A stretch of DNA of 64,000 nucleotides from an uncultured Gammaproteobacteria bacterium (GTDB lineage: Bacteria; Patescibacteriota; Patescibacteriia; Magasanikbacterales; UBA922): contig CAYSXR010000001.1 of assembly GCA_964435035.1 (NCBI GenBank), positions 144,192 to 208,191 of the forward strand, read 5' to 3'. Position 1 is the first letter of the stretch, and the number at the start of each line of letters is the position of its first letter. Below, in pieces: positions 42,221 through 56,493 of the stretch. The translations under genes and the position numbers were made by a program. Under the pieces are notes generated by a model that was given only the letters and a program-made list of their open reading frames with translations, did not search any database and had not been told where the DNA came from.

Positions 42221-42832
42221 ATGGACCTCCCCATGACTCATTCACCAATGAAACGCCTCGCCAGATCAAAAAAATTGCTTATTGCGGTCGGAATACTCTG
42301 TGGATTGATTGCGGGAGGGGCAACATTAGCATTTCCACTCAAATATCGGGCAGACGCACAGGTTTATATTCTTTCTCAGGCACGTTTTGGAGTTGATCCC
42401 TATACGGTTGCAAAATCAGGAGAACGAATTGCCGAGAATTTGGCACAGATCATGAAGACCGAAGATTTTTATGAAAAAACAAAATCAGAAACCAGCTACG
42501 CAGTAGACTGGAGTTATTTTGAAAACAAGACGCTAAGAGATCGAAAAAAAATGTGGGAGAAAACAATTGATCCAGCGGTAGTGTATGGATCAAGCGTGCT
42601 CACGGTAAGCGCGTATCACGAAGAACCTGCACAGGCAATCGCAATTGCAGGTGCAGCAGCGACTGCTCTCGTCACCAAGACAAGTGAGTACGTAGGTGGT
42701 GATGTATCGATTCGATTGGTGAGTCGCCCTATCGCGACACAGTTTCCGGTAAAACCAAATCCACTCGTGAATGCATTTCTGGGAGCCGGAGTGGGAATAC
42801 TTTTTGCGGCTCTGCTATTACTTAGAAAATAG
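42221..42832 (+). CDS. Wzz-like polysaccharide chain-length determinant (PCP) protein
   Basis: 203 aa with an N-terminal TM after KRLARSKK. The C-terminal proline motif PVKPNPLVNAFLGAGVGILFAALLLL is typical of PCP TM2. Confidence 0.7.
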   Translation: MDLPMTHSPMKRLARSKKLLIAVGILCGLIAGGATLAFPLKYRADAQVYILSQARFGVDPYTVAKSGERIAENLAQIMKTEDFYEKTKSETSYAVDWSYFENKTLRDRKKMWEKTIDPAVVYGSSVLTVSAYHEEPAQAIAIAGAAATALVTKTSEYVGGDVSIRLVSRPIATQFPVKPNPLVNAFLGAGVGILFAALLLLRK

Positions 42833-42848
42833 ATATTAATTTTTTTCT

Positions 42849-43172
42849 ATGCCTGGTCCGCTTTATTTTACTGATGAATATATTCGGAAACTGTTGGTAG
42901 AAGAATCGATTACATTTTCAGAAGCTGAAAGCAGGGTGTATATCCCGCGTTTTGTTGCACTGATAGAAGAAAAACTGGGTGGCGTACTCATGGAAAAACT
43001 CACTGATGCTCAACTTACTGAATTCGAAAAGCTATTTTCAGATGCACAGACTACTGGAGAACAGTGGAAAATATTTTGGAACAAAAGTATTCCGAATTTT
43101 TCTCTGTTTGTGGAGGAATACTTGCATAGCTGCACCGGAGAACTCAAAGGGCTTTTGAAAAATAATGTATAG
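42849..43172 (+). CDS. Hypothetical protein
   Basis: 107 aa, helical, first gene of a tightly packed three-gene unit. Confidence 0.55.
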   Translation: MPGPLYFTDEYIRKLLVEESITFSEAESRVYIPRFVALIEEKLGGVLMEKLTDAQLTEFEKLFSDAQTTGEQWKIFWNKSIPNFSLFVEEYLHSCTGELKGLLKNNV

Positions 43173-43377
43173 AGGTATGTCGCAGATGAAAGATTTTGGT
43201 GTACAAAAATCAACCCTGCATGAAGCGGATGTGCTTCTTGGTGAGTACGAAGAATTAATGGTAGAAATTAGGGATTTGAAAAAGAAAGCGATGCGTCTAT
43301 ACTCGGAGGTAGAGAAAGACCAGAATAAATCAGAAGTCGTACAAGCTCTTGGAAAAATTTTAGAAATTCCTGAATAA
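43165..43377 (+). CDS. Hypothetical small coiled-coil protein
   Basis: 70 aa. Its start overlaps the upstream stop by 8 nt (ATGTATAG), suggesting translational coupling. Confidence 0.5.
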   Translation: MYRGMSQMKDFGVQKSTLHEADVLLGEYEELMVEIRDLKKKAMRLYSEVEKDQNKSEVVQALGKILEIPE

Positions 43378-43399
43378 ATTATTTTTTAAATCTGTGTGT

Positions 43400-46240
43400 A
43401 TGGTAGCGATATCCCCCGAACAATCAGTACCGCAAGAATCACGAAAGAAAAAAACACCTGATACGGTAAAAATAGAGAAATATAGTGAGGTGTGGGAGCA
43501 TGCAAAAAATCTGGAGGGTAAAATAAAAAAACTCAAAGAACATGCAATCGATGCGGATGAAATCGGAGAAATAGAAGGTATTCTCAAAGATGCAAAAGGA
43601 TATTTTTCTAGATTTGGAGAGAAAAAAGATAAAGGCAGAAGTGTTGCTCAGCTTGAAGAGAGGCGTAAGGCTGCAGTAGAAAAACTTACTGACCTTAATC
43701 GGCGCATGGTGTCGATGCTTGAAAAATTAGGACAACCAATTCCTAATACTCTTTTGTCGTACAAAGACAGTGGATTTGTTGATATTGTAAAAGAATCTAA
43801 TAAAGAAGGGTTGTCTGAAGAAAAAAAAGAAGAAGTGTCTGAAGTTGTGGGTGCTCATATAATTCAGCCCCCTGAAAATTATTCTAAAGAGTCATTGGGT
43901 GATTCAGAAATTGGTGGTGTGAATAGTATCGAGGCGCCAGAGAAGAAGGAAGAAGTGTTGGTTTCTGCCGAAGAGTCGCCTGTAAATGTACGAGAGGAAT
44001 CATCCTCACCTGAAACACCAATAGAAGATGTTATCAAGATTTCTTCAGGAGGAAAAACATATGAATTCGGCTGGCACGAACAGGTGGTTTACACTACTGC
44101 AAAGGGTAAGCAGCTTGAGTGTATTGTGCTTGGAAAATCAAATGATGAGAATAAGCCGGGGCTTATTTTGAAAGATCTTGAAAAAGGAAAAGTATTTGCT
44201 CTTGGTGCAGATGCGGTTGCAAAACGGGTACATGTTTCTGATGGTGAAATAGTTTCTCCACGTGTAGAAAATAATAAGGCCGATTCTGGTCAATCTGCTG
44301 AAGGTGAAGATATTGATAGAGAAGAAAAAGCTGCTCTTGAAAAAATGAAAAAAGACCAGAGGGAAGTAGAAGAGAAAAAAGCTCAAGAATTAAGTGAATT
44401 ATTAGCACAAGCTGGAAAGTCTGCCGAAGATGACACTTCATTTGTACACACAAGCACAGATGAGAGGGGAAGTTTCGATCAGAAGATGGTTGATAAACTT
44501 GTAGCTGATGGATCGATTGAAAAAATTAACACGTTATTGAAAAATAAATCCGAGGTGTGGGTACAGGAAGATGGTAAATGGTATCAGGGTGTAGTGCAAG
44601 ATATTACCGGAGCACAGGTGGGTGTTACTGTAGGAGAGGAGGGTCGAGAGAAAAAATATTTCTATGTGGATGCTGAAGAATTTTTGGGCATGCAGGATCG
44701 AGCGAAAAAATTGTTGAAATACAAAAAAGAATTAGAGCTTCCCTCGGTGGTGGTGGACACCGAATTCCTCGCTCGTCCAGATACGATCACCAAAGGTGAA
44801 ATTTTTACTCCTCCGACCGAGAGAAAGACCGTACCTGACGTGCCTCTAGTGAGTATTGATACTCCATTGCCGGTACGAGAACGAAAAACCTACCCAGAAG
44901 TTTCAGAAAAAAAAGCAATACAGATGATTCAATCAGTCGCTGAAGAATTTGAAAAAACATGGAAAGGAATGCGCATGATGACGACAGAAAAACAAAAGAC
45001 CGGATGGCTCCAGAGTAAGGAAGTTGAACGAGAGATGACGGTGACAGAAAAAAAGGAGCAATTAGAAGCGTGGCTTGATATGGTGGAGCAGGCATTTGAT
45101 TCACTCGACAAGCAAAAAGATGGGACACACATGGAAAAACCAGTACTCATGTGGCATCAGGCACAGGCATTAATTCGCGCATTAGAAAATGAACTTCGGT
45201 ATACAGAAGAAACGAATAAAAGTGAAGAGTGGGATCACGCACTTGAGGCTTTTAGTAGTATAATTAATGAAAGAAGCACACGTCTCAAGGAAAAAAAGAA
45301 AGGGTCATTGATTGCACCGTGGGCCATGAAAACGACACTTGCTGCCTTGGGTGCTTTTGCAATCGGAAATGCAACAAACAATCGAATAGAAGATGTGGCT
45401 GCAGTGAGTGAACGATATATGGAAGCAGGTGAAAAAAAATATGAATTACCCAGAGAAGAACATACGGGTGATGCACAGAGAAATATGCTAGATTTTGTAA
45501 TTAATATGAATCGGATGATAAACGAGCCCACACTTTCGATAACACCCGTTGCAATTGATGCTCGACTTACTCCACAGATCAAGGATAAAATATCAGGGAA
45601 AGTTCCGGGTTTGGCTGGTGCAGAAATAGCATCTGATGGAAAATCAGTTACATTGACTTTTGATAATAACCAAACAGTTGAAAGTCGTCCTGAAAAAATA
45701 CAAAAGTCGGGTCGCGATAGTTGGAAACTGAAGACAGCTGAGAAAAAGGGTCCGGAGTATGGCGAACAAATGTTGAGAGAATTAAGGAAAGTATTGGGTG
45801 AAGTAAAGCAAGAGTTTCCTGATATGTTTCGTGGACCAGAATCATCTTCCAAGCAAAAGAGAGTAGTAAGAACAGTAGTACAGGCCGAAAAGAAATTACG
45901 AGAAGCAGAGGTAGTAATACCGAGAAGTGGTGAGGCGAGAAGACAGTTGGAACAAGTAAAACAGGTGTTGGAACAAGTAAAACCAGGACTCGAATCTATT
46001 TCAAAAGAGATTGTAGATGAGATTAAGGCAGAGGATCTCGAATTGCCACAGGATGTATTTGTGCGTTTTAGTCGAGAGGTTACGTTTGATCCAAAGGCAG
46101 ATGCTCTATTTGAGGAATGGGGAAATGCACGAAATTCTCTCAAAGCAGCACAGGAAGCAGGAGATCAAGAGGGGGTAAAGAAAAGTAACGAGGAGTTGCG
46201 TAAGGTTATTGAAAAAATAACGAAAGAGTATAGTAAATAA
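43400..46240 (+). CDS. Large charged hypothetical protein with two SH3/Tudor-like beta segments
   Basis: About 946 aa, rich in Lys/Glu coiled-coil-like stretches, with one central hydrophobic segment (TTLAALGAFAIGNA). ATG 43400 preferred over GTG 43394. Confidence 0.6.
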   Translation: MVAISPEQSVPQESRKKKTPDTVKIEKYSEVWEHAKNLEGKIKKLKEHAIDADEIGEIEGILKDAKGYFSRFGEKKDKGRSVAQLEERRKAAVEKLTDLNRRMVSMLEKLGQPIPNTLLSYKDSGFVDIVKESNKEGLSEEKKEEVSEVVGAHIIQPPENYSKESLGDSEIGGVNSIEAPEKKEEVLVSAEESPVNVREESSSPETPIEDVIKISSGGKTYEFGWHEQVVYTTAKGKQLECIVLGKSNDENKPGLILKDLEKGKVFALGADAVAKRVHVSDGEIVSPRVENNKADSGQSAEGEDIDREEKAALEKMKKDQREVEEKKAQELSELLAQAGKSAEDDTSFVHTSTDERGSFDQKMVDKLVADGSIEKINTLLKNKSEVWVQEDGKWYQGVVQDITGAQVGVTVGEEGREKKYFYVDAEEFLGMQDRAKKLLKYKKELELPSVVVDTEFLARPDTITKGEIFTPPTERKTVPDVPLVSIDTPLPVRERKTYPEVSEKKAIQMIQSVAEEFEKTWKGMRMMTTEKQKTGWLQSKEVEREMTVTEKKEQLEAWLDMVEQAFDSLDKQKDGTHMEKPVLMWHQAQALIRALENELRYTEETNKSEEWDHALEAFSSIINERSTRLKEKKKGSLIAPWAMKTTLAALGAFAIGNATNNRIEDVAAVSERYMEAGEKKYELPREEHTGDAQRNMLDFVINMNRMINEPTLSITPVAIDARLTPQIKDKISGKVPGLAGAEIASDGKSVTLTFDNNQTVESRPEKIQKSGRDSWKLKTAEKKGPEYGEQMLRELRKVLGEVKQEFPDMFRGPESSSKQKRVVRTVVQAEKKLREAEVVIPRSGEARRQLEQVKQVLEQVKPGLESISKEIVDEIKAEDLELPQDVFVRFSREVTFDPKADALFEEWGNARNSLKAAQEAGDQEGVKKSNEELRKVIEKITKEYSK

Positions 46241-46261
46241 CATTTTGATATAGAGAAGAAA

Positions 46262-46297
46262 AATCACTGATAGCAGTCGGTGATTTTTTGTTTTTTT
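46262..46297 (+). terminator. Rho-independent terminator
   Basis: aatcactga-tagcag-tcggtgatt hairpin, then ttttttgttttttt. Confidence 0.75.
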
Positions 46298-46416: not shown

Positions 46417-46445
46417 TTGACAAAAAGGTATAAATATGCTATAGT
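46417..46445 (+). promoter_or_regulatory. Consensus sigma70-type promoter (TTGACA-17-TATAGT) driving the GC-rich island
   Basis: acTTGACAaaaaggtataaatatgcTATAGTac is near-identical in layout to the promoter at 63780-63808. Confidence 0.7.
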
Positions 46446-46655
46446 ACTGCGTTATTTCAAAAGCCCTACATAGGTCTTCGAAATAGCAATCCAGGGGCCC
46501 CATCAGAGAGGATATGTGTCCCTTCTGATGGAGTCCCTGGTCTAGGAGCTCCCACTGTGGCCCGTTCGGGCAATAGTGAGAGCCTTAGGCTCATTACAAT
46601 CGAAGAAGCTAGAACACGTGCCCCTATGAAAGGGGTGTAAACGAGGAGATCAGAA
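46446..46655 (+). promoter_or_regulatory. Structured 5' leader of about 200 nt
   Basis: Nested helices ccaggg[ccatcaga...tctgatgg]ccctgg, gcccg-tt-cgggc, gagcc-tta-ggctc, and cccct-atgaa-agggg just before SD gaggag. No known riboswitch recognised. Confidence 0.45.
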
Positions 46656-48104
46656 ATGATTGACCGCAACAAGAAGAGCAACAAGAAGAGCACGCCCGTG
46701 AAGGGCGGCGCTGCGGCGAACCCGCAGGCGATGGCAACCGTGGCGTCTCACAAGGACGACACGGCTCAGATCGATGTGGTGGTCGAGACCAATCCCGAGG
46801 CCGACAAGGTCGAGGGTGAGGTCAAGGCCGATGAAGAGGCGAAGGTCGAAGAGACCGTCGCCACCGCCCCGACCGAGAACGTCGAGAAGAGCGAGGAGCC
46901 GGCCGTTGTGGTCGACCCCGAGCCCGAGCTCGAGCAGAAGCGGAACTTCCGTAAGGAAGACCTCCGCCTCCGGTACAACGACAACCCGCAGGTGCTGCTC
47001 ACCTCCGCGGATCTCAGCGAAGAGGACAAGGTCCTCATCGGCGAGATCGCGAGCGAGCAGAACCAGGTCGTCCGCGACTATGCCGCGCTGGCACAGGAGC
47101 TGACCGACGAGAAGGACCAGCTCGAGCAGAAGCTCGACGCGACCAACTCCAAGCTGGGGAACGTCACCAACCTCATCGCGACCACGGTCAAGGAGACCGT
47201 GGGACAGGTGGACAAGGAGACGTCGGCCTTGATCGAAGGTCTGAAGATCGAGATCGAGGGCGTCATCGGCAAGGGTAACGGCGTGAAGAACGCCGTCACG
47301 AAGATCGGGGACGATGTCAACAAGGACATCGGCTCGCTCAAGGGTCAGGTCAACGCCAACGCCAAGTCGGTCAACGACAAGGTCGATGGGATGGCCGCGA
47401 TGCTCGGGAAGATCGACGAGAAGATCTCCGAGATCAAGTCCCCGCCGCCCCCGCAGCAGCCGCCGGCTCAGTCCAGCACCACCCCGTCCTCCGGATCCTC
47501 CGGGTGGCCGTGGGTCGTGGCCGTGGGCATCTTGCTCGCGGCCGTGATCGCGGTCTTCCTCCTGAACAAGGATGTGAAGATCGAGGTCCAGGTGCAGCAG
47601 CCGGCGGTGAACACCGTGAAGGGTGTGGTGCCGCCGGTGGTGGACAACGCTCTCGGGGTGACCTCGCAGCAGGTGACCCCGGGTGGACCGGGGAATCCGA
47701 TCGTGCCCACGGTGGTCGGTGCCACGTCCGAGGATCCCTGCAAGGGGAAGGTCGGTGGGGAGCTCGGGTCGTGTGTCCTTCAGCTGGAGAAGTTCCGGCC
47801 GAAGGGGTTCACTGATGCGCACTGGAACACGGTCGTCGAGACCTTCCAGAACGTCATCATGGTCCCCTTGAGCGTTCCGTTCAAGGACATCAAGCACCAC
47901 GACAAGGCCATCGAGCACAACATGAGGAAAGACGCGGCACTGCAGGCGTGCGTCGACGCATACGTCTTGAAGACGGATGATGTCGAGTCGAACGTCCGGT
48001 GTCAGCGGGCGGTCGATTGTCTGTTCACTTCGGTGGACGAGGCAGCACAGTGCTACATGACGCATACGCGCTCGATCACGGGCGTTTTGGTCACTGTCAA
48101 CTGA
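46656..48104 (+). CDS. Bitopic membrane protein: acidic coiled-coil N-domain, Pro-rich linker, TM, Cys-containing C-domain (island gene a)
   Basis: 482 aa with an SD upstream. TM helix WPWVVAVGILLAAVIAVFLL. Seven Cys residues, all C-terminal to the TM. Extreme GC3 codon usage (AAG/GAG/GAC/AAC/ATC). Confidence 0.75.
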   Translation: MIDRNKKSNKKSTPVKGGAAANPQAMATVASHKDDTAQIDVVVETNPEADKVEGEVKADEEAKVEETVATAPTENVEKSEEPAVVVDPEPELEQKRNFRKEDLRLRYNDNPQVLLTSADLSEEDKVLIGEIASEQNQVVRDYAALAQELTDEKDQLEQKLDATNSKLGNVTNLIATTVKETVGQVDKETSALIEGLKIEIEGVIGKGNGVKNAVTKIGDDVNKDIGSLKGQVNANAKSVNDKVDGMAAMLGKIDEKISEIKSPPPPQQPPAQSSTTPSSGSSGWPWVVAVGILLAAVIAVFLLNKDVKIEVQVQQPAVNTVKGVVPPVVDNALGVTSQQVTPGGPGNPIVPTVVGATSEDPCKGKVGGELGSCVLQLEKFRPKGFTDAHWNTVVETFQNVIMVPLSVPFKDIKHHDKAIEHNMRKDAALQACVDAYVLKTDDVESNVRCQRAVDCLFTSVDEAAQCYMTHTRSITGVLVTVN

Positions 48105-48119
48105 ACCTCAACCCAACTA

Positions 48120-48145: not shown

Positions 48146-48159
48146 ACAGGAGAACAGAC

Positions 48160-49346: not shown

Positions 49347-49375
49347 TTGACAAACGAGAGTATTTATGCTATACT
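49347..49375 (+). promoter_or_regulatory. Consensus sigma70-type promoter (TTGACA-17-TATACT)
   Basis: gcTTGACAaacgagagtatttatgcTATACTaag, located inside an AT-rich spacer of the GC-rich island. Confidence 0.7.
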
Positions 49376-49685: not shown

Positions 49686-51452
49686 ATGAAGAAGTTCAAC
49701 AAGTTCCTGTTCGTCGTCATGTTCATCTCGTTCGTCGCGGCCATCACGGGCTGCGCCGATCACGGTGGCGAGACGGTCGTCGTCAAGGGTGACGATGGGG
49801 AGAGCGTCAAGCTCTGCCCCGAGGAGCATCAGTGCTCCTCGGCCGAGTTCTGCAACTCGCAGGGTCTCTGCGTCATCCCCGGTGCCAACGGCACCAACGG
49901 CGAGGACTTCGAGCGATGCTCGAATAGTCGTGGTGACTGTGTCGGTAACGAGCTCTGCAACTCGCAGGGCGTGTGTGTGCTCGAAGGTCCGCAAGGGCCG
50001 GCGGGGGAGTCCTGTACCGTGTCGACGAAGGTCGACGGGTGCTTCTTCCTCTACTGTGGCGCAAGCGTCACGGAGATCTGCGACGGCGAGGACGGTGTGT
50101 CCTGCACGGTCGCAGGGCAGCCGGACGGCAGCGCTCAGGTCGAGTGCTCGGACGGTTCGTTCGCGACCATCCTCCCCGGACAAGACGGCGAGGACGGTCT
50201 CAACGGCACGAGCTGCACGGCCTCGACGGTCAAAGGTTGCCTCGTGGTGACCTGCGGAACGCAGTCGACGGAGATCTGCCCGGAGGATCTTCCGGATCCC
50301 GAGCCGGTCGACGGCTGCCAGAAGGACTCGGACTGCACGGACGGCAGCGAGTGCACCAACGACATCTGCGATCTCAACACCGGCACCTGCCGGTACGTGT
50401 CGCAGGTGTGTGATGACGGCGTCGCCTGCACCAACGACTGGTGTGACACGAACGGCTACTGCCGTTCGACCGCGGACAATGATCAGTGCAGCGGCGGCGA
50501 CTTCTGCTTGCCGACCGGTTACTGGTTTTGGTCCTCGGCGGTGGGTTCTGAGGAACTCGCTGACGGAGGCTGTTACGAGTGCCGCTGGGACTCTGATTGT
50601 GCCGACGGCGACGCGTGTACGGTCGACACCTGCGACGCGGGTGTTTGCAAGAAGGAAACGCGCGAGTGCCCCACGGGTGCGACGTGCGTCGAGTACTCGA
50701 GCAACTACTACGACGACTCGGAGTGGAACTACGTGTGCCAGGACAATCCGTCGTGCAGCAACAACAGCCAGTGCGACGACGGCAAGTACTGGACGACGGA
50801 TGCGTGCGTGGCCGGGGAGTGTGTCTACACCCAGGTGTCGTGCAACGACAACAACGCATGCACCGTGGACACGGTGAACTCGAGTGGGCAGTGCACCTAC
50901 GCCCAGATCTCGTGCGACGATGGCAAATCCGCCACGGTCGACACGTGCTCTGCGAATACGGGGTGCGTACACACGCCGGTGAACACCGGCTGCGAGCACG
51001 ATCTCGATTGCGATGACGTCGACGGTACGACCACGGACCTGTGCGAGGACAACGGGAGCTGTACACATACTCCCAATGCCCAGTGCAAGTCCCTGACGGT
51101 CAAGGTCGGCTGGGCCATCCTGTGGTCGCGCGGTCCCGAGATCGGAACCACCAATGTCCCGATGGGCAACTGGCGTAGCTGCGAGGAAGACGAGGCGGAG
51201 AACTGCCGTACCATGTCGTGGTGCGGTGACGACATCGTGGAGTTCAATGTTCAGCAGATGCCGAACGTGGCAGGTGCCGACTGGCTCGTGAAGAACGAGA
51301 AAGGCGACAGCCCTTGCACGTCGAACGCAGATGCGACCTTGAACTACACGCCCGCTGATCTCTTCGTCGGGGCGACGCCGGTGCAGAAGGGCTGTTCGCT
51401 CTTCTGCGACCCGAACGGGTACACCAACTACACCTGCGATTCCGCGGAGTAG
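49686..51452 (+). CDS. Cys-rich repeat lipoprotein (island gene c)
   Basis: Start MKKFNKFLFVVMFISFVAAITGC (lipobox) follows SD ggggaggag. Repeats of the form C.(D/N)D.C....G.C, resembling Dictyostelium-CTDC-type units. The ORF-track start at 49338 was rejected. Confidence 0.75.
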   Translation: MKKFNKFLFVVMFISFVAAITGCADHGGETVVVKGDDGESVKLCPEEHQCSSAEFCNSQGLCVIPGANGTNGEDFERCSNSRGDCVGNELCNSQGVCVLEGPQGPAGESCTVSTKVDGCFFLYCGASVTEICDGEDGVSCTVAGQPDGSAQVECSDGSFATILPGQDGEDGLNGTSCTASTVKGCLVVTCGTQSTEICPEDLPDPEPVDGCQKDSDCTDGSECTNDICDLNTGTCRYVSQVCDDGVACTNDWCDTNGYCRSTADNDQCSGGDFCLPTGYWFWSSAVGSEELADGGCYECRWDSDCADGDACTVDTCDAGVCKKETRECPTGATCVEYSSNYYDDSEWNYVCQDNPSCSNNSQCDDGKYWTTDACVAGECVYTQVSCNDNNACTVDTVNSSGQCTYAQISCDDGKSATVDTCSANTGCVHTPVNTGCEHDLDCDDVDGTTTDLCEDNGSCTHTPNAQCKSLTVKVGWAILWSRGPEIGTTNVPMGNWRSCEEDEAENCRTMSWCGDDIVEFNVQQMPNVAGADWLVKNEKGDSPCTSNADATLNYTPADLFVGATPVQKGCSLFCDPNGYTNYTCDSAE

Positions 51453-51727: not shown

Positions 51728-51795
51728 CAAACCCTTTCCATCATTATGATGGTTTCAATTCCCCTCAACCGCGACGACAGAAATGTCACGCGCGG

Positions 51796-51913: not shown

Positions 51914-52651
51914 ATGTTGGGTATGACGTTTCGTTTGTTTGTTTTCTGTCTCACCGTGTTCACCGCCGCATGCATCGAGGATATGCGGCGGGAGGAAGCG
52001 TCCATGGTCCAGGTCGATACGTCGACTGGCATCATGGATATGGTGGAGGAAGTCAAAGACGTACCAGATTCACGGGTCCGTGATCGGTATGATATCGAAT
52101 TTCCTCCTACAGCCGACGAGTGTGTCGTCGATGAATTCATCGCAGAGGGAAGCCCTTGCGATGATGGCGATGCATGCACGATCGATGTCTGTATCCAGGG
52201 CATGTGTCGTAATCGAGCTATCGACTGCGACGACGGAAATCCCTGGACGGATGACGAGTGCATCGTCGACACTGGGGCGTGCTCCAGTGTACATCGGGTG
52301 ACTCATTTCACCGTTCGCGCGGAGCGTCCGGGAAAGGTGAAGCTTTGGTATGGGAATCACACCGAGCCAGAGACCTATCCCATGAACTCGAGCTTCGAGA
52401 TCCAGAAGATGGATCTCTGCGTCGAGAACCGTGTGCTCACGCTCGCGGTAGAGGACGAAGAGTTCCCGGGAACCTACTGGGGTTGTAACCCTGGCCTTCC
52501 TTCGAAGAGGGAACTCGCAGTCGAGATCGACGGGGTGGACACGCCCGGTTATTTCGCTGCGGATCTCGGATGGGAGGTGCCCAACTCTGCGTGTGGTGGG
52601 AAGGGAGAGGGTGACCTCTACTTCTTGCGGGCGCAACTCGCATGTGACTGA
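51914..52651 (+). CDS. Small Cys-rich lipoprotein sharing the C-terminal domain of gene e (island gene d)
   Basis: SD aggagggg upstream. Signal peptide ..LTVFTAAC. Two Cys-rich units (CDDGDACTIDVC, CDDGNPWTDDEC). The C-domain motif CNPGLPSKRELAVEIDGV matches CNPGFPSKSTLTVMVNGV in gene e. Confidence 0.7.
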   Translation: MLGMTFRLFVFCLTVFTAACIEDMRREEASMVQVDTSTGIMDMVEEVKDVPDSRVRDRYDIEFPPTADECVVDEFIAEGSPCDDGDACTIDVCIQGMCRNRAIDCDDGNPWTDDECIVDTGACSSVHRVTHFTVRAERPGKVKLWYGNHTEPETYPMNSSFEIQKMDLCVENRVLTLAVEDEEFPGTYWGCNPGLPSKRELAVEIDGVDTPGYFAADLGWEVPNSACGGKGEGDLYFLRAQLACD

Positions 52652-52739: not shown

Positions 52740-52768
52740 TTGACAAAATACTCTTTTCCTGATATGTT
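52740..52768 (+). promoter_or_regulatory. Putative promoter (TTGACA-17-TATGTT)
   Basis: The -35 is consensus and the -10 is weak. A leader of about 220 nt follows, with the long hairpin ctagagg..ccctctag (52881-52946). Confidence 0.45.
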
Positions 52769-52998
52769 GATACGATTGTATCTACGCATATCGGATATCT
52801 AGAGAGGTATCTGGTATGCGCCACTGGAGAATCATTCTCAAGTGTGTATGTTCATTATAATCACATAAGTTTTTTGTTCAGCTAGAGGATGGGTGCAGAT
52901 AGAGGTATATGTAACATATCTTGTATCGATAGCCACCCTCTAGCTGAGACACAGTGTCACTGCTGGAGTTCAACGGCCTCACAACGGAGGAAGGCCAA

Positions 52999-55041
52999 AT
53001 GCGTCTGAAGAACAACAACAACCGGATGTTCATCATCACGGTTGCCCTCGCCATGGGGTTCATGGCGGCGTGCACGGAACACGGCGGCGACGAGCCGATC
53101 GTGGTCGTGATGAAGGCGGACCTCGACCTCGACGAGGTCCCCAACAACGTCGACAACTGCCCGGGGGACAACAACCCCGATCAGTTGGACACCGACGGCG
53201 ACGGCATGGGCGATGCGTGCGACAACGACGTCGACGGCGACGGGGTCTTGAACCCCGCCGACAACTGCCCCGACAACTTCAACCCCGACCAGGCGAACCT
53301 CGACAAGGTCCTGGCCGACAGCGGCAACGTCACCGTGGTCGCGGATCTCTTCGGAGACGTCTGCGACAACGACGACGACGGCGACGTGGTCTGCGACCCC
53401 TGGCTCGGCGTGGACGGGTGGGAAGAATTCCATCCCGGTCAGGGCGAGACGTGTCAGGGCGAGGACAACTGTCCCGACGTCGCCAACGCCGACCAGGCGA
53501 ACCTCGACAAGGACTTCGAGGGCGACGTCTGCGACAACGACGTCGACGGCGACGGCGACCTCAACGGCGCAGACAACTGCCCGCTCGTGACCAACGCCGA
53601 CCAGGCAAACCTGGATCGGGACGACTGGGGCGACGCCTGCGACACCGACGACGACAACGACAGCTTCTGCGACGAAGCTGCCCCCGTCTCGATGCCGCGA
53701 AATGCGCCCGCGATGCCCCTCTGCGAGGGCGAGGACAACTGCCCCCGCTTCAAGAACGCGGGACAGGAAGACATGGACGAGGACGGCATGGGCGACGTCT
53801 GCGACGACGACTGCGACGGGGACCTCTACCCCGAAGCGTCGCCCTGGGATTTCCCCAACCTGTCGTGCTTCGTGTATTGCAATCCGGAAGGTCCGGGAAC
53901 CGAGTGCGACGACGCGAACACGTGCACCACGGACACCTGCAACGGGCAGGGCGTTTGCGAGTACGTGTTCACGCAGTCCGAGACGTGCGAATGCGTCTTG
54001 GACTCCGACTGCGAGCCGACCGACGCCTGCGTCACCGAGATGGCGTGCGTGGAAAACACGTGCGTCGAGACCGGATGGAAGGTCCTGACCGACGGGGACA
54101 ACTGCACCATCGACACCTGTGATCCCTCGACCGGCGTGGTCACCCACGTCGAGAAGGACTGTGGTGGGGACCTCTGCGGAGGAGGCCTCTCGTGTAACCG
54201 CATGACCGGAGAGTGCAGCACACCCGTGCCGCAAATTCCGATCAACGACAGCAACGCCTGCACCACCGACGCGTGCGATCCCGAGACCGGCGTGGTCACC
54301 CACGTCGCGATCGTCTGCGACGATGGGAACGCATGCAACGGCACCGAGACGTGCAACCCGGCTTCCGGGTGCGTCGCGGGTACGCCGCTCACGTGCGATG
54401 ACGGAAGCGTCTGCACGATCGACAGTTGTTCGGCAAACACCTGCCAACACGTGGCGGTGACGACGAACGACAACAACATGTGCACCACCGACACCTGCGA
54501 TCCCGAGATGGGGGTGCAGCACACGGCGGTGGTGTGCAACGACGTGAACTCCAACACCACCGACACCTGCGATCCGGCGACGGGTTGCGTGCACACGCCG
54601 ACGGGGAACTGCACGGTCAACGCGGATTGCAACGACAGCAATCCCCTGACCTACGACACCTGCGTCGCGCTCGTCTGCCAACATGTGGAAGGTGTCCGCG
54701 TGCAGGTCTCGTCGACCGACACGTCGGAGACCTGGCAGGTCAATTTCTACTACAACGGTACGACGATCTCCGGCAACCTGCCCTTCGACGGGACCTTGCC
54801 GAAGACGCTCGCATGCAGCTGGGGCGCCGACATCGCCGTCAACCGTCCGAGCACGAACTTGTTCTTGGACTGCAACCCGGGGTTCCCCTCGAAGTCCACC
54901 CTGACCGTCATGGTCAATGGTGTCACGAAGGCGAACGACTTCCAGGTTCGTTCGCAGGCATGCGACGGCGCTCCGCCGGGCAACCTGTGGCTCTCCGACG
55001 AGAGCGGTGACAACGACCTGGGATGCCCCGCGGCACCCTAG
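52999..55041 (+). CDS. Lipoprotein with thrombospondin-type-3-like Ca-binding repeats and Cys-rich repeats (island gene e)
   Basis: SD ggaggaagg, then MRLKNNNNRMFIITVALAMGFMAAC. Repeated DNCPxxxNxDQxDxDxDGxGDxCDxDxDGD units, then repeated CxxDxCDPxTGxxH units. The mature N-terminus CTEHGGDE resembles CADHGGE of gene c. Confidence 0.75.
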   Translation: MRLKNNNNRMFIITVALAMGFMAACTEHGGDEPIVVVMKADLDLDEVPNNVDNCPGDNNPDQLDTDGDGMGDACDNDVDGDGVLNPADNCPDNFNPDQANLDKVLADSGNVTVVADLFGDVCDNDDDGDVVCDPWLGVDGWEEFHPGQGETCQGEDNCPDVANADQANLDKDFEGDVCDNDVDGDGDLNGADNCPLVTNADQANLDRDDWGDACDTDDDNDSFCDEAAPVSMPRNAPAMPLCEGEDNCPRFKNAGQEDMDEDGMGDVCDDDCDGDLYPEASPWDFPNLSCFVYCNPEGPGTECDDANTCTTDTCNGQGVCEYVFTQSETCECVLDSDCEPTDACVTEMACVENTCVETGWKVLTDGDNCTIDTCDPSTGVVTHVEKDCGGDLCGGGLSCNRMTGECSTPVPQIPINDSNACTTDACDPETGVVTHVAIVCDDGNACNGTETCNPASGCVAGTPLTCDDGSVCTIDSCSANTCQHVAVTTNDNNMCTTDTCDPEMGVQHTAVVCNDVNSNTTDTCDPATGCVHTPTGNCTVNADCNDSNPLTYDTCVALVCQHVEGVRVQVSSTDTSETWQVNFYYNGTTISGNLPFDGTLPKTLACSWGADIAVNRPSTNLFLDCNPGFPSKSTLTVMVNGVTKANDFQVRSQACDGAPPGNLWLSDESGDNDLGCPAAP

Positions 55042-55226
55042 AACTTCTCCTGCGACGACTGCAGGAGCATCTCGAAGTGAACGTGTGATTCGCTTCTGTA
55101 GGTGAATGTTCGAAGACAATCACACAAACCGGGGGAAGTGCGCTCGCTACTACAGCGACCGCTTCCTCCCCTCTACTCTGAATTCAAGTACGATCTTGAG
55201 AATAGAGTAGAAGGGCACGCTAGAAT

Positions 55227-55248
55227 AACCGCACTATGCGGTTTTTTT
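55227..55248 (+). terminator. Rho-independent terminator at right edge of island
   Basis: aaccgca-cta-tgcggtt followed by ttttt. Confidence 0.8.
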
Positions 55249-55253
55249 GTTAT

Positions 55254-55355
55254 GTCATTCCGAGCGAGTGCACCCGAGCCGAGGAATCTTTCCTGTATAA
55301 GACCATGTAAGAAAGATTCCTCGACTCCCTCGGAGACTCGGTCGCTCGGAATGAC
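55254..55355. repeat. Palindromic MITE-like element (family D, solo copy)
   Basis: Perfect 14-bp termini gtcattccgagcga / tcgctcggaatgac and inner 13-bp inverted repeat cgaggaatctttc / gaaagattcctcg. Its arms match the arms of the copies at 61107 and 61583. Confidence 0.75.
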
Positions 55356-55416
55356 TATCGTCACTTTTTCTTTTTTTAATTTCCCCCTTGCTTGTGATAT
55401 ACTTATCTAGAATTTT

Positions 55417-56493
55417 ATGAAACAAATCCATGTCGTGCATATCATTCCCAAGCTTGGTTTCGGTGGAGCCGAGCGTTTTGTGGTTGAACTTGCCAAGCAT
55501 ATGCCATCCAAGAATATCCGCCAGTCAATTATTACCCTGTGGGATGATCGTCCGCTGATGAAGGAATTACCTGATTCAGTTTCGTGCACCGTGTTTCCTT
55601 TTGATCGTATCGGATATATACATCGGATTCCAAAGCTTACAAAAATGCTTCGAGAAATGCAGGCTGATATAGTGCATACACATCTTTTTAGTGCAGATCT
55701 ATGGGGGAGGCTTGCAGCAAAGTCACTGGGGATTCCGGTAGTTACGACTGAACATAATATCAATGTAGGAGAATCGTGGCTCTGGGGAAGAATCAAACGT
55801 GCAATGAAAAAATATTCTCGCGTGTACACCGCACCATCAAGTGCTGTTCGAGAGTATATGAAAACGGCGTATGGGATTGCAGTTGAAAATACTCGAGTGA
55901 TTATGCATGGTATCGAATTAGAACATTTTATCAAAATAAAACCTGCAGCTTTTGCCCCACCATACAAGCTACTCATGATGGGAAGAATGGTAGAACAAAA
56001 AGGGCATTCAATTGCGCTTGATGCATTACAAAAAATTAGAGATATTTCGTGTACGCTTACGATGGTGGGTGATGGAGAAAAAAAAGAATCGCTCATGCAC
56101 TATGCAAAAGAATTAGGAGTAAGTGATCGAGTGATATGGAAATCAGCCACCGAGAATGTGTCGAGAGAATATGCAACAGCAGACATCGTACTCGTTCCAT
56201 CACGATGGGAAGGATTGGGAATTGTGGTATTTGAAGCGCTCGCAAGTGAGAGATTGGTAATCGGATCTCGGGTCGGAGGAATTCCTGAAATTATTATTGA
56301 TGGAGAAAATGGTCGATTGATTCCCGTAGAAAATAGCGACGCACTTGCAGATGCAATTCGGGCAAGTGTGAAAAATCAATTAGCTTCAAAAAAAATTGCA
56401 AAGCAGGGTCGTGTCTGGGTAAAAGAACAAGGAAGTGTTGCACGTATGACTGAAGCATATGAGGCACTGTATCAGGAAGTAGTAAAAAAATAA
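55417..56493 (+). CDS. Glycosyltransferase family 4 (GT-B)
   Basis: 358 aa with N-terminal GGAERFV and a C-terminal EGLGIVVFEALASERLVIGSRVGGIPEII (E-x7-E region). Confidence 0.85.
   Translation: MKQIHVVHIIPKLGFGGAERFVVELAKHMPSKNIRQSIITLWDDRPLMKELPDSVSCTVFPFDRIGYIHRIPKLTKMLREMQADIVHTHLFSADLWGRLAAKSLGIPVVTTEHNINVGESWLWGRIKRAMKKYSRVYTAPSSAVREYMKTAYGIAVENTRVIMHGIELEHFIKIKPAAFAPPYKLLMMGRMVEQKGHSIALDALQKIRDISCTLTMVGDGEKKESLMHYAKELGVSDRVIWKSATENVSREYATADIVLVPSRWEGLGIVVFEALASERLVIGSRVGGIPEIIIDGENGRLIPVENSDALADAIRASVKNQLASKKIAKQGRVWVKEQGSVARMTEAYEALYQEVVKK

What the first reader, a model, noticed from the sequence alone, without database searches (positions are those of the whole stretch)
42221..55417. 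Island and an unknown three-gene operon split a Wzz-like gene from the rest of the surface-polysaccharide cluster
The Wzz/PCP-like gene (42221-42832) would normally sit next to Wzy-type polymerase and glycosyltransferase genes. Here those genes start at 55417 (GT4, Wzy/O-antigen-ligase-like, GT4, GH-like/FG-GAP, then another GT at 63851). The intervening 12.6 kb holds a tightly coupled operon of unknown function (42849-46240; the second gene overlaps the first by 8 nt; the third encodes about 946 aa with SH3/Tudor-like segments) plus the GC-rich island. Both may therefore be insertions into an envelope-biogenesis locus. That would be a logical place for acquired surface or adhesion functions.
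Basis: inference. Interest (0 to 1): 0.4.

Follow-up and report, generated by a model that had tools for sequence, protein, structure and literature searches.

The report
Conserved GC-rich surface-protein genes, not insertions
In this small AT-rich candidate-phyla bacterium (Magasanikbacteria-like), the genes between the Wzz-like gene and the sugar-polymer genes are not recent insertions: they keep the same place across the whole lineage, and they include five surface-protein genes that stay extremely GC-rich at silent codon positions, which ordinary horizontal transfer does not explain.

Summary
The 203-aa protein has the PCP/Wzz fold. GT4, Wzy, GT4 and GHL15/FG-GAP genes start at 55417. The 12.6 kb in between holds three tightly packed genes and a GC-rich block.

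The "insertion" reading fails. In 87 related Magasanikbacteria-like loci the Wzz gene travels with an upstream membrane protein and a PDZ-like protein. Downstream, DUF5663 was detected in 36 loci and a variable giant protein in those examined. Where enough sequence is available, a GC-rich block usually follows at the same place.

The block is five + strand genes: a TM protein, an OmpW/OmpA-like 8-stranded beta-barrel with a coiled coil, and three Cys-rich lipoproteins with TSP3 and Dicty repeats. Their GC3 is 0.65-0.89, against 0.26-0.38 for 23 host genes. The spacers between them are only 42-46% GC (one 55-nt spacer is 60%) and carry near-consensus promoters.

The giant gene and the first three block genes are hypervariable. 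A near-conspecific has flanks 92-99% identical but these genes only 40-57%, and its two recovered block genes are also GC3-rich. In a distant relative, GC3-rich and AT-rich genes alternate gene by gene.

Best reading: an ancestral, recombining surface-protein cassette whose GC-rich codons are actively maintained. The cause is unresolved.

The parts
40213..40968 (+). p251: polytopic membrane protein (about 9 TM helices), a conserved upstream partner of the Wzz-like gene
   Evidence: The hydropathy scan is. tblastn finds it upstream of Wzz in 62 of 87 related loci. It has no Pfam or PADLOC hit.
41017..42069 (+). 350-aa membrane-anchored protein with a weak C-terminal PDZ match; a conserved upstream partner
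   Evidence: The PDZ match is weak (E 4e-3). It has one N-terminal TM helix. It is present next to Wzz in 67 of 87 loci.
42221..42832 (+). Short Wzz/PCP-fold protein (203 aa; TM1, alpha/beta base domain, TM2; no long helical hairpin and no kinase domain)
   Evidence: Pfam Wzz scores 27.6 bits against a cut-off of 25.5. There are 57 homologues, all about 200 aa, from Magasanikbacteria or Patescibacteria. The AF2 model has pLDDT 87. Foldseek matches Wzc and KpsE.
42849..43172 (+). DUF5663-like 107-aa cytoplasmic protein
   Evidence: Pfam DUF5663 scores 21.6 bits against a cut-off of 23.7. The same family is called in relatives directly after Wzz.
43177..43377 (+). 66-aa protein (an alternative ATG at 43165 would give the 8-nt overlap)
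   Evidence: Relatives carry a 66-69 aa ORF here, 71% identical in rel1.
43394..46240 (+). Variable giant cytoplasmic protein (946-948 aa here; 932-2831 aa in relatives); AT-rich but hypervariable
   Evidence: It has no Pfam, PDB or PADLOC hit and no TM helix. It is 52-57% identical to the allele in near-conspecific L102 and 67% to that in the more distant rel1. Its GC3 is 0.31.
46258..46289 (+). Terminator-like hairpin with a T-run after the giant gene
46417..46445 (+). Near-consensus promoter-like site (TTGACA-17-TATAGT, with TG extension) upstream of the first GC-rich gene
   Evidence: 11 of 12 positions match.
46656..48104 (+). i482: single-pass TM protein with a coiled-coil N-terminal part and a Cys-containing C-terminal domain; GC3 0.88; hypervariable
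   Evidence: Identity is 46% to L102, 38% (C-terminal part) to rel1 and 28% to L101. Gene callers called the opposite strand here.
48160..49095 (+). i311: signal peptide, coiled coil, then an 8-stranded OMP-like beta-barrel ending in ...HEF; GC3 0.81
49347..49375 (+). Near-consensus promoter-like site (TTGACA-17-TATACT, with TG extension), about 310 nt upstream of i588
49686..51452 (+). i588: Cys-rich lipoprotein (lipobox ITGC) with Dicty_CTDC-type repeats; GC3 0.84
   Evidence: Its C-terminal domain is 39% identical to rel1 r_335.
51914..52651 (+). i245: small Cys-containing lipoprotein (lipobox TAAC); GC3 0.65
   Evidence: It is 78% identical to the rel1 orthologue. Its C-terminal domain is shared with i680 and with L042 proteins.
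52740..52768 (+). Promoter-like site (TTGACA-17-TATGTT, with TG extension) upstream of i680
52999..55041 (+). i680: lipoprotein (lipobox MAAC) with thrombospondin type-3 and Dicty_CTDC repeats plus a C-terminal domain; GC3 0.89
   Evidence: Pfam gives TSP_3 3.6e-22 and Dicty_CTDC 7.6e-28. NCBIfam MtsC-like scores 114 bits, below its cut-off. It is 81% identical to rel1, with dS 0.19 and dN/dS 0.58.
55227..55243 (+). Terminator-like hairpin after i680
55254..55355 (.). Palindromic repeat element (GTCATTCCGAGCGA...TCGCTCGGAATGAC); independent assemblies break here
   Evidence: Three copies lie in the window.
55417..61074 (+). AT-rich glycan genes: GT4 (55417-56493), Wzy_C/O-antigen-ligase-like (56501-57976), GT4 (57982-59061), GHL15+FG-GAP (59065-61074)
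   Evidence: Pfam hits are. GC3 is 0.31-0.38. Orthologues in the same order in rel1 are 69-73% identical. In L042, Wzy and GT4 follow the GC-rich genes.
61855..63705 (+). DUF11-repeat surface protein, AT-rich

Best explanation
**What the region is.** The stretch from about 40.2 to 63.7 kb is one ancestral cell-surface locus of a Magasanikbacteria-like (CPR/Patescibacteria) lineage. It is not a Wzz gene cut off from its cluster by insertions.

**Conserved backbone.**
- A polytopic membrane protein, a PDZ-like protein and a short PCP/Wzz-fold protein.
- DUF5663 and a 66-aa protein.
- Further downstream, GT4, Wzy, GT4 and GHL15.

**Variable cassette between them.**
- A giant cytoplasmic protein.
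- A module of exported proteins: a TM-anchored coiled-coil protein, an OmpW/OmpA-like beta-barrel with a coiled coil, and Cys-rich TSP3/Dicty-repeat lipoproteins.
- Each exported-protein gene, or pair of genes, has its own near-consensus promoter, a Shine-Dalgarno sequence and a long AT-rich leader.

**How the cassette evolves.** It behaves like a surface-antigen locus. Very divergent alleles sit at a fixed site and are swapped between lineages by homologous recombination. I infer that diversifying selection from hosts or phages drives this.

**The GC-rich codons.** The exported-protein genes, and only they, keep GC-ending codons throughout the clade. Three facts argue against a regional mutation bias or a leftover donor composition:
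- The bias starts at the start codon and ends at the stop codon.
- It skips spacers and interleaved AT-rich genes.
- It persists in lineages whose flanking genes are saturated at silent sites.

I therefore infer that it is held by selection acting on the coding sequence or mRNA of these particular genes. Possible targets are translation rate, mRNA stability, or avoidance of AT-rich motifs.

**Shown:** the anatomy, the conservation, the hypervariability, the recombination and the codon pattern.

**Inferred:** that selection is the cause, what the proteins do (adhesion or contact with a host cell envelope), and that Wzz works with the distal Wzy/GT genes.
For: **Conservation**
- Relatives with Wzz identity of 99, 88, 75, 63, 49 and 46% keep Wzz-DUF5663-66aa-giant gene, followed by a GC-rich block.
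- The relative at 92% Wzz identity (L101) has a permuted order, with DUF5663 after the giant gene, and the GC-rich block still follows.
- The whole order through GT4-Wzy-GT4-GHL15-DUF11 recurs in GCA_052033375.1.
- The p251-PDZ-Wzz triad is found in 62-67 of 87 loci.
- 19 of 43 loci with at least 6 kb downstream carry + ORFs whose GC3 exceeds the host's by more than 0.30. Host GC3 is 0.22-0.40 and block GC3 is 0.60-0.96, median 0.82.
- The architecture (TM protein, barrel ending in F or W, TSP3/Cys-rich lipoprotein) recurs in distant loci.

**Codon-level, gene-specific bias**
- GC3 is 0.65-0.89 against 0.26-0.38 in host genes. GC2 is host-like in two of the genes.
- Synonymous preferences are inverted, given as island/host percentages: AAG 94/20, ATC 97/20, TTC 93/19. 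ATA, TTA, CTA and AGA are at 0%.
- Spacers are 42-46% GC, apart from one 55-nt spacer at 60%.
- GC3 is already 0.70-0.93 in the first 30 codons.
- L042 alternates GC3 of 0.87, 0.86, 0.23, 0.71, 0.27 and 0.22 gene by gene.
- Other large surface proteins in the window are AT-rich.
- The hypervariable giant gene is AT-rich (GC3 0.31). Hypervariability or recombination alone therefore does not produce GC-richness.

**Persistence**
- Flank dS between the window and rel1 is 0.94-2.4, near saturation. Both genomes nevertheless keep the bias.

**Hypervariability and exchange**
- L102 flanks are 92-99% aa identical, but the giant gene is 52-57%, gene 1 is 46% and the barrel is 40%.
- The window's giant gene is closer to rel1 than to L102.
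- The right part of the block, including its AT-rich spacer, is 88-93% identical to rel1 while the flanks are about 71%.

**Expression signals**
- The three best sigma-70-like sites in 42-56 kb lie in block spacers.
- All five genes have GGAGG-type SD sequences.

**No donor found**
- Protein searches of 5.8 billion sequences found full-length relatives only on unnamed Logan, JGI and NCBI contigs. The two whose context was examined (rel1, L102) are Magasanikbacteria-like.
Against: - Selection on silent sites is inferred by exclusion. No polarised substitution or polymorphism data were available.
- The codon usage looks like that of an ordinary 65% GC bacterium, which is what a foreign origin would give.
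- The block spacers (42-46% GC) are somewhat richer than typical host spacers (23-35%). This hints at some regional or historical GC input.
- The right part of the block has clearly moved between lineages more recently than the flanks diverged. The age of any given allele in an AT-rich genome is therefore unknown.
- Some members of the same clade are GC-rich overall (L061 host GC3 0.74, L090 0.61) and could be a reservoir.
- Seven assessable loci lack the block directly after the giant gene.
- Gene callers often pick the wrong strand in the block. Protein-database searches for donors or relatives are therefore weakened for CPR genomes, though not for properly called GC-rich genomes.
- No physiological reason for GC-rich codons was demonstrated.
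Confidence: 0.5

Rival explanations
1. Recurrent import. The cassette is a recombination hotspot. New alleles of the surface genes are repeatedly brought in from GC-rich donors, either GC-rich members of the same clade or GC-rich host bacteria. The GC-rich codons would then simply be donor composition that has not yet decayed. Rare foreign alleles would be favoured by frequency-dependent selection.
For: - Codon usage is typical of a roughly 65% GC bacterium.
- The protein types (OMP-like barrel, TSP3/Dicty Cys-rich lipoproteins) are common in diderm GC-rich groups such as Myxococcota.
- Inter-lineage transfer of part of the block has been shown.
- Allele trees are incongruent.
- GC-rich genomes exist within the Wzz-defined clade (L061, L090, L094).
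- Block spacers are slightly GC-enriched.
Against: - No full-length homologue of i245 or i311 was found on a contig attributable to a GC-rich organism among 5.8 billion proteins. The matches to named GC-rich groups were short Dicty-repeat matches.
- The AT-rich spacers travel with the genes and are as conserved as the genes, or more so (93%). The unit being exchanged already has AT-rich non-coding DNA, which is not how a GC-rich genome looks.
- Every allele seen in every AT-rich lineage is GC3-rich. That would need one-way flow and essentially no old resident alleles.
- The co-exchanged giant gene is AT-rich.
- phmmer of window block proteins against GC-rich ORFs of L061 and L094 found nothing.
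Confidence: 0.28
2. A local GC-biasing process. This could be GC-biased gene conversion from very frequent recombination, or a targeted AT-to-GC mutator acting on these genes. Either would raise GC at unconstrained sites and also speed up protein divergence.
For: - The block is a recombination hotspot with very fast protein divergence (dN/dS 0.58 for i680; 22-46% identity for other genes).
- Spacers inside the block are about 10 points richer in GC than other spacers.
Against: - The bias switches at start and stop codons, not at recombination tracts.
- A co-transferred spacer stays at 43% GC.
- An AT-rich gene (GC3 0.23) sits between GC3-rich genes in L042.
- The equally hypervariable and exchanged giant gene has GC3 0.31.
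- From general knowledge (not checked here), reported bacterial gBGC effects are a few GC3 points, not 50.
- No reverse transcriptase or template/variable repeat pair was seen.
Confidence: 0.1
3. The three-gene operon and the GC-rich island are separate, fairly recent insertions that split Wzz from its Wzy/GT partners in this genome.
For: - The block has strongly atypical composition.
- Wzz and Wzy are 13.7 kb apart.
- In L042, Wzz and Wzy are closer and the operon is missing. The operon is therefore dispensable for the arrangement.
Against: - The same order, or in L101 a permuted one, is found in relatives from 99% down to 46% Wzz identity. DUF5663 follows Wzz in at least 36 loci.
- The block is at the same site in 19 lineage samples.
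- There is no integrase, tRNA or direct repeat at the borders.
- Even L042 has the GC-rich genes between Wzz and Wzy.
Confidence: 0.04
4. Artefact. The GC-rich block is a chimeric join of a GC-rich organism's contig into a CPR contig.
For: - Unitig assemblies break at 49044-49096 and inside the palindrome at 55254-55355.
Against: - The left junction is crossed in two independent Logan assemblies.
- The same structure appears in more than 15 independent assemblies from NCBI, ENA, JGI and Logan, some with both flanks on one contig.
- The AT-rich spacers carry host-type promoters and SD sequences.
- The right-hand break coincides with a multi-copy palindromic repeat.
Confidence: 0.01

Closest known systems
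O-antigen / capsule gene clusters of Enterobacteria (hypervariable surface-structure loci at a fixed chromosomal site, e.g. between galF and gnd, with atypical base composition) - comparison from general knowledge
   Same: - It sits at a fixed site between conserved flanks.
- Its alleles are far more divergent than the flanks.
- Alleles are exchanged by recombination, which gives incongruent phylogenies.
- All alleles share a base composition that departs from the genome's.
- It is physically associated with Wzz/Wzy/GT genes.
   Different: - The variable genes encode proteins (a barrel and lipoproteins), not sugar-pathway enzymes. The GT/Wzy genes here are part of the conserved, normally composed backbone.
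- The deviation is towards high GC in an AT-rich genome and is much larger (GC3 +0.5).
- It is gene-by-gene, sparing spacers and interleaved genes.
- It persists across lineages whose Wzz proteins are only 42-56% identical to this one.
PCP (polysaccharide co-polymerase) family: Wzz (PCP-1), Wzc (PCP-2a), KpsE (PCP-3), and the short CapA/CpsC-type PCP-2b of monoderms
   Same: - It has the two-TM topology and the alpha/beta base-domain fold.
- It has a Pfam Wzz match and a Pro/Gly-rich segment before TM2.
- A Wzy-like gene lies in the same locus.
   Different: - It is only 203 aa, with no long helical hairpin.
- Pfam or NCBIfam scans of about 35 of the window's ORFs, including all genes from 39.7 to 63.7 kb, found no BY-kinase domain and no Wzx/flippase match.
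- Its constant neighbours are an unknown 9-TM protein, a PDZ-like protein, DUF5663 and a giant cytoplasmic protein, not Wzy or GT genes.
Small 8-stranded outer-membrane beta-barrels (OmpW, NspA, OmpA/OprF N-domain, OmpX/Ail)
   Same: - It has a signal peptide and eight long amphipathic antiparallel strands.
- It ends in a C-terminal aromatic residue.
   Different: - It matches no sequence family.
- It is fused to a roughly 140-aa N-terminal coiled coil.
- It is encoded in a CPR bacterium, a group generally regarded as lacking an outer membrane. The membrane it inserts into is therefore unknown.
Large G+C-rich (lgr) genes of Protochlamydia amoebophila (PMC2216083)
   Same: A family of genes named for being G+C-rich in that bacterium's chromosome, encoding repeat proteins (LRR) thought to act in host interaction.
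   Different: - The abstract describes the lgr genes as recent paralogues in one genome.
- Here the genes are a syntenic, clade-wide, hypervariable cassette of exported proteins, with a documented silent-site bias and AT-rich spacers.
Myxococcus MtsC-type TSP3-repeat cell-cohesion proteins and 'slime-mold repeat' Cys-rich lipoproteins
   Same: i680 shares TSP3 repeats (NCBIfam MtsC model, 114 bits) and Dicty_CTDC repeats. It also has a lipoprotein signal.
   Different: - The score is below the family cut-off of 350 bits.
- There is no MYXO-CTERM signal.
- The similarity is confined to the repeats.
- The C-terminal domain is shared only with i245-type proteins of this lineage.

Membership tests
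PCP / Wzz family | N- and C-terminal TM helices flanking an extracytoplasmic domain | tested here: met
   TM segments lie at 13-31 and 180-198. The AF2 model shows helices 17-35 and 181-202.
PCP / Wzz family | Match to the Wzz domain profile (PF02706) above the curated threshold | tested here: met
   It scores 27.6 bits against 25.5, which is marginal. Many homologues carry the precomputed PF02706 hit. An NCBIfam chain-length-determinant model gave only 14 bits.
PCP / Wzz family | PCP alpha/beta base-domain fold | tested here: met
   Foldseek PDB matches are Wzc 7nhr (E 8.7e-7) and KpsE 8tsi (TM-score 0.64-0.66), both with probability 1.00.
PCP / Wzz family | Pro/Gly-rich motif preceding TM2 (PX2PX4SPKX11GX3G) | tested here: inconclusive
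   P176, P179, N180, N184, G188 and G192 are invariant or nearly so. The profile aligns to the Wzc TM2 region at E 0.31. The SPK core is absent.
PCP / Wzz family | Long periplasmic alpha-helical hairpin forming the oligomeric bell | tested here: not met
   The model has only short helices between the TM segments and the protein is 203 aa. From general knowledge, this is typical of the short monoderm PCP-2b type.
PCP / Wzz family | Functional partners encoded nearby (Wzy polymerase, Wzx, BY-kinase) | tested here: inconclusive
   A Wzy_C gene lies 13.7 kb downstream here and in rel1, and 6.3 kb downstream in L042. Pfam or NCBIfam scans of about 35 of the window's ORFs, including all genes from 39.7 to 63.7 kb, found no kinase or Wzx.
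Recently acquired genomic island | Atypical base composition and codon usage | tested here: met
Recently acquired genomic island | Absent from the same site in close relatives | tested here: not met
   It is present at the same site in L008, L009, L011, L019, L020, L101, L102 and many metagenome loci.
Recently acquired genomic island | Mobility hallmarks (integrase or transposase, tRNA target, flanking direct repeats) | tested here: not met
   No Pfam hit of that kind was found. The tRNAs are at 16.6 and 36.5 kb only. No flanking direct repeats were found. Two viral-collection scans found nothing.
Recently acquired genomic island | Identifiable donor lineage | tested here: not met
   Full-length homologues were found only on unnamed Logan, JGI and NCBI contigs. 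The two whose context was examined (rel1, L102) are Magasanikbacteria-like. The repeat-only hits were uninformative.
8-stranded OMP beta-barrel (OmpW/OmpA/OmpX-like) | Cleavable signal peptide plus eight amphipathic antiparallel strands closing a barrel | tested here: met
8-stranded OMP beta-barrel (OmpW/OmpA/OmpX-like) | C-terminal aromatic residue (beta-signal) | tested here: met
   The window protein ends in ...GHEF. Homologues end in F or W in L009, L024, L040, L042 and L045, but in L in P0068 and L019.
8-stranded OMP beta-barrel (OmpW/OmpA/OmpX-like) | Sequence-profile membership in a known OMP family | tested here: not met
   Pfam and NCBIfam gave only coiled-coil noise.
8-stranded OMP beta-barrel (OmpW/OmpA/OmpX-like) | Organism has an outer membrane and BAM machinery | not testable with these tools
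   Only 64 kb of the genome is available. From general knowledge, CPR bacteria are regarded as lacking an outer membrane.
Hypervariable surface-antigen locus (O-antigen/capsule-like) | Fixed site, with alleles far more divergent than the flanks | tested here: met
   In L102 the flanks are 92-99% aa identical and the cassette genes 40-57%.
Hypervariable surface-antigen locus (O-antigen/capsule-like) | Evidence of allelic exchange (incongruent relationships, mosaic divergence) | tested here: met
Hypervariable surface-antigen locus (O-antigen/capsule-like) | Variable genes are glycan-synthesis genes | tested here: not met
   The variable genes encode a giant cytoplasmic protein and exported proteins. 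The GT and Wzy genes are conserved at 69-73% like other flanks.

The most novel reading that the evidence does not exclude
A whole CPR clade keeps one set of exported proteins in 'GC-rich code' inside AT-rich genomes. The set comprises an OMP-type beta-barrel with a coiled-coil stalk, plus Cys-rich Ca-binding lipoproteins. In this reading the composition is maintained by selection and is tied to what these proteins do at the symbiont-host interface. For example, the proteins might be made for insertion into, or mimicry of, a GC-rich diderm host's outer membrane. The codon bias might then gate their translation or stabilise their mRNAs. If so, gene-specific silent-site composition would be a heritable, functional trait of a host-interaction module. 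It would also mark a family of CPR surface proteins that current gene callers largely miss.
Probability: 0.25. Interest if true: 0.85.

Novelty: new variant of a known kind. Interest (0 to 1): 0.62.

Why it matters
- **For the finding as posed.** The Wzz gene is not orphaned by insertions. Its real, conserved partners are unknown proteins. That is a caution against reading Wzz here as a classical chain-length regulator.
- **The larger point.** A stable, gene-by-gene inversion of codon composition (GC3 about 0.8-0.9 against 0.3) in a hypervariable surface cassette runs across lineages whose Wzz proteins are only 42-56% identical to this one. Standard amelioration theory predicts that such a contrast should fade. 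Its persistence implies selection on silent sites or a process not yet described.
- **Biology of the organism.** The cassette contains an OMP-type barrel in an organism thought to have no outer membrane. It is a concrete candidate for the unknown host-attachment machinery of CPR bacteria.
- **Practical consequence.** Prodigal-type callers pick the wrong strand in these genes. The proteins are therefore under-represented in protein databases, and compositional filters could remove such regions from MAGs as contamination.

Tried and rejected
- **Assembly chimera.** Rejected. Independent assemblies cross the junctions, and the structure recurs in many projects.
- **Amino-acid composition as the cause of GC-richness.** Rejected. 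The excess is at third positions, and synonymous preferences are inverted.
- **Minus-strand ORFs called by the pipelines (471 aa, 226 aa, 720 aa).** Rejected as real genes. The high-GC position falls on their first codon position. The + frames carry signal peptides, lipoboxes, Pfam domains and conserved orthologues.
- **Low dS of i680 as a sign of silent-site constraint.** Rejected for that gene. The adjacent AT-rich spacer is even more conserved (93%), so the low dS reflects recent exchange.
- **Prophage or mobile element.** Two viral-collection scans, PADLOC, and a search for integrase or direct repeats found nothing.
- **DGR-type diversification.** No reverse transcriptase and no template/variable repeat pair were found. 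The repeats in the block are the degenerate Cys-rich and TSP3 units.
- **Donor search with i680 against 1.84 billion representatives.** It returned only giant repeat proteins (Peribacteria, a Mesostigma assembly), which was uninformative.
- **Metagenome scan with the barrel alignment.** It found nothing. The second scan, with the Wzz alignment, gave the 80 loci that were used.
- **SH3/Tudor-like segments in the giant protein.** No Pfam support.
- **Polarising silent substitutions with a third close genome (L101).** Its contig ends 1.4 kb into the block, so this could not be done.
- **Literature searches.** Searches on Magasanikbacteria, CPR GC-rich islands and CPR beta-barrels found no description of this pattern.

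Full report

The window is about 40% GC. Between roughly 46.6 and 55.1 kb the GC content rises to 52-65%.

The ORF at 42221-42832 passes the Pfam Wzz threshold narrowly (27.6 bits against 25.5) and has a weak GNVR match. It has TM helices at both ends. An AlphaFold model built on 22 homologues (pLDDT 87) finds the PCP proteins Wzc and KpsE as its best PDB matches (Foldseek E 9e-7 to 1e-5, probability 1.00). It is therefore a short PCP-fold protein. It lacks the long helical hairpin, and no kinase is encoded nearby.

The three following genes are present:
- 42849-43172, which is DUF5663-like.
- A 66-aa ORF that most probably starts at 43177 rather than 43165. The '8-nt overlap' is therefore probably a 4-nt gap.
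- 43394/43400-46240.

GT4, Wzy_C, GT4, GHL15+FG-GAP and DUF11 follow from 55417. The 'SH3/Tudor-like' remark about the large protein found no support.

**2. What the GC-rich block is.**

It holds five + strand genes:

| Gene | Coordinates | Product |
|---|---|---|
| i482 | 46656-48104 | Single-pass TM protein with a coiled coil and a Cys-containing C-terminal domain |
| i311 | 48160-49095 | Signal peptide, coiled coil and a C-terminal beta domain |
| i588 | 49686-51452 | Cys-rich lipoprotein |
| i245 | 51914-52651 | Small lipoprotein |
| i680 | 52999-55041 | Lipoprotein with thrombospondin type-3 and Dicty_CTDC repeats |

The GC excess is at silent sites. GC3 is 0.88, 0.81, 0.84, 0.65 and 0.89, against 0.26-0.38 in all 23 other genes tested. 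Synonymous choices are inverted, given as island/host percentages: Lys AAG 94/20, Ile ATC 97/20, Phe TTC 93/19, Asn AAC 87/14. ATA, TTA, CTA and AGA are never used.

The bias is already present in the first 30 codons (GC3 0.70-0.93). The long spacers between the genes are only 42-46% GC; one 55-nt spacer is 60%.

Those spacers contain the three best sigma-70-like sites of the whole 42-56 kb stretch, all with an extended -10 TG (46417, 49347, 52740). Each gene has a GGAGG-type Shine-Dalgarno sequence. Terminator-like hairpins bracket the block (46258, 55227).

Automatic gene callers chose the opposite strand for several of these genes. This explains why protein-database searches return so few relatives.

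**3. Relatives: the order is conserved, and so is the anomaly.**

Homologues of the Wzz-like protein are all about 200 aa. Where they are named, they come from Candidatus Magasanikbacteria or Patescibacteria.

Contigs encoding homologues at 88, 75, 63, 49 and 46% identity all show the same arrangement. SmpB lies upstream on the opposite strand. Then come the 251-aa membrane protein, the about-350-aa PDZ-like protein, Wzz, DUF5663, a 66-69 aa ORF and a giant protein of 1144-2831 aa. In every one, the GC content jumps to 58-68% right after the giant gene.

For GCA_052033375.1 I joined two overlapping loci. This recovered the complete order Wzz-107-66-1144aa-[GC-rich genes]-GT4-Wzy-GT4-GHL15-DUF11.

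A metagenome scan with the Wzz alignment gave 80 more loci:
- The 251-aa/PDZ-like/Wzz triad is detectable in 62-67 of 87 loci.
- DUF5663 is detectable after Wzz in 36 loci.
- Of 43 loci with at least 6 kb downstream, 19 carry + strand ORFs of at least 150 aa whose GC3 exceeds the host genes' GC3 by more than 0.30. Host GC3 is 0.22-0.40. Block ORF GC3 is 0.60-0.96, median 0.82.
- Most negatives are loci where the giant ORF fills the available flank. In a few, synteny breaks.

The proteins in these distant blocks have the same architectures: a TM protein, a signal peptide plus barrel ending in F or W, and TSP3/Cys-rich lipoproteins.

L042 is especially telling. Wzz is followed by six genes with GC3 as follows:

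| Gene in L042 | GC3 |
|---|---|
| Barrel gene | 0.87 |
| Cys-rich lipoprotein | 0.86 |
| AT-rich secreted protein | 0.23 |
| i245-like lipoprotein | 0.71 |
| Wzy | 0.27 |
| GT4 | 0.22 |

The composition is therefore a property of particular genes, not of a region.

**4. Evolutionary dynamics.**

*Window against GCA_052033375.1.* Flank proteins are 66-86% identical. Their silent sites are near saturation: dS is 0.94-2.4, and 4-fold identity is 0.33-0.57 against about 0.28 expected by chance.

Within the block:
- i245 and i680 are 78% and 81% identical.
- i482, i311 and i588 match their positional counterparts at only 38% (C-terminal part), 22% and 39% (C-terminal part).
- i680 has dS of only 0.19 and dN/dS of 0.58.
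- The AT-rich spacer upstream of i680 is 93% identical, and the region after it is 90-97% identical.

This right-hand part was therefore exchanged between the lineages after they split, spacers included.

*Window against L102.* This near-conspecific has flanks 92-99% identical in protein and 87.5% in DNA. Its giant protein is only 52-57% identical, its gene 1 is 46% and its barrel is 40%. Both recovered block genes (GC3 0.85 and 0.74) are GC3-rich.

The window's giant protein is closer to the distant relative (67%) than to L102 (52%).

The stretch from the giant gene to i588 thus behaves like a hypervariable, recombining antigen-type locus. Importantly, the giant gene shares that behaviour yet has host-like GC3 (0.31). 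Other large surface proteins in the window also have GC3 of about 0.27.

**5. Interpretation.**

The 'two insertions' idea is contradicted by synteny. It is also undermined by the lack of any mobility hallmark.

The Wzz-like gene's constant companions are unknown proteins, not Wzy/GT genes. The Wzy/GT genes do recur downstream of the cassette in the three lineages where that could be seen (window, GCA_052033375.1, L042).

For the GC-rich codons I weighed four causes:
1. **Regional mutation bias or biased gene conversion.** This fits poorly. The bias respects start and stop codons, spares co-transferred spacers, and skips an interleaved gene and the equally recombining giant gene.
2. **Leftover donor composition after one old transfer.** This is incompatible with saturated silent sites in the flanks across lineages that all retain the bias.
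3. **Repeated import from GC-rich donors.** This remains possible. Exchange is demonstrated, some clade members are GC-rich, and the codon usage looks like that of a normal GC-rich bacterium. Against it, no donor homologue was found, and the exchanged unit already has AT-rich non-coding DNA.
4. **Selection on the coding sequence or mRNA of these genes.** This accounts for all the patterns, but it is inferred by exclusion, and I cannot say what is selected.

I commit to (4) layered on an ancestral, recombining cassette, at moderate confidence. I rank (3) as the main rival.

**6. Comparison with known systems.**
- The nearest analogue in behaviour is the O-antigen/capsule type of hypervariable locus with atypical composition (comparison from general knowledge). 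Here the variable genes encode proteins, the deviation is GC-ward, it is gene-specific, and it is far larger.
- The Protochlamydia 'large GC-rich genes' (PMC2216083) are a looser parallel.
- The Wzz-like protein meets the topology, profile and fold criteria of PCPs. It does not have the helical-hairpin or kinase-partner features.
- i311 meets the structural criteria of small OMP barrels. It belongs to no sequence family, and it sits in a lineage regarded as lacking an outer membrane.
- Literature searches found no prior description of this pattern.

**7. Verdict.**

The finding as posed is ordinary. What lies underneath is unusual and testable: a clade-wide, gene-specific, persistent GC3 inversion in a hypervariable exported-protein cassette that includes an OMP-like barrel.

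Noticed in passing
window 55254-55355, 61107-61244, 61583-61719: There are three copies of a palindromic element about 100-137 nt long (GTCATTCCGAGCGA ... TCGCTCGGAATGAC) in intergenic regions around the glycan genes. That gives 6 half-site matches against 0.33 expected by chance. Unitig assemblies break inside the first copy. It looks like a REP/MITE-type repeat.
   Followed up: partly
window 46650-48065 (-), 48097-48777 (-), 52957-55119 (-); L008 14977-15714, 16921-17991, 19380-20582: Automatic gene callers (in Logan and NCBI records) call long antisense ORFs instead of the real + strand genes in the GC-rich block. As a result, these proteins are largely missing from protein databases. The i245 search found one full-length relative besides the query itself, and i311 found four.
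   Followed up: yes
window 49044-49096; L102 end (about 470 nt after the barrel gene): Independent assemblies from several samples end at or just after the 3' end of the barrel gene. This suggests strain-level variants of the downstream cassette genes within the populations.
   Followed up: no
window 38375-38647 (-): A 90-aa GIY-YIG-domain ORF lies between infC (IF3) and the tmRNA gene. It is present here and in L020 but absent from L008, L009, L011 and L019. It is likely a small mobile homing-endonuclease-type gene.
   Followed up: no
rel1 (L013 part), about 31.0-32.9 kb of the merged GCA_052033375.1 locus, - strand: There are further Cys-rich lipoprotein genes (lipobox, Dicty-type repeats) with raised GC3 (0.53-0.75), about 2 kb beyond the DUF11 and GT genes. 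The GC-rich gene class is therefore not confined to one block. The corresponding place lies beyond the end of this window.
   Followed up: partly
L031 17410-18420 and 19065-20075: An identical tandem duplicate of a GC3-rich (0.85) 336-aa gene encodes a TM protein with collagen-like Gly-X-Y repeats, at the cassette position of a distant relative.
   Followed up: no
L061, L090, L094, L083 (metagenome loci): Some members of the same Wzz-defined clade are GC-rich throughout (host-gene GC3 0.53-0.74). Base composition therefore varies widely within the clade. Such lineages could act as a reservoir of GC-rich alleles.
   Followed up: partly
L101 10625-16386 (GCA_020049755.1): In a relative with 92% Wzz identity the order is permuted: Wzz, 66 aa, a 1745-aa giant protein with a GT2 domain, then DUF5663. 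The giant gene and its small partners therefore rearrange even between close relatives.
   Followed up: no
window 21473-27466 and 11900-15238: Two other very large predicted surface proteins have ordinary AT-rich codon usage (GC3 about 0.27). One is 1997 aa with LVIVD, Big_13 and fn3 domains. The other is 1112 aa with M23 peptidase and a lamin-tail domain. They served as an internal control.
   Followed up: partly
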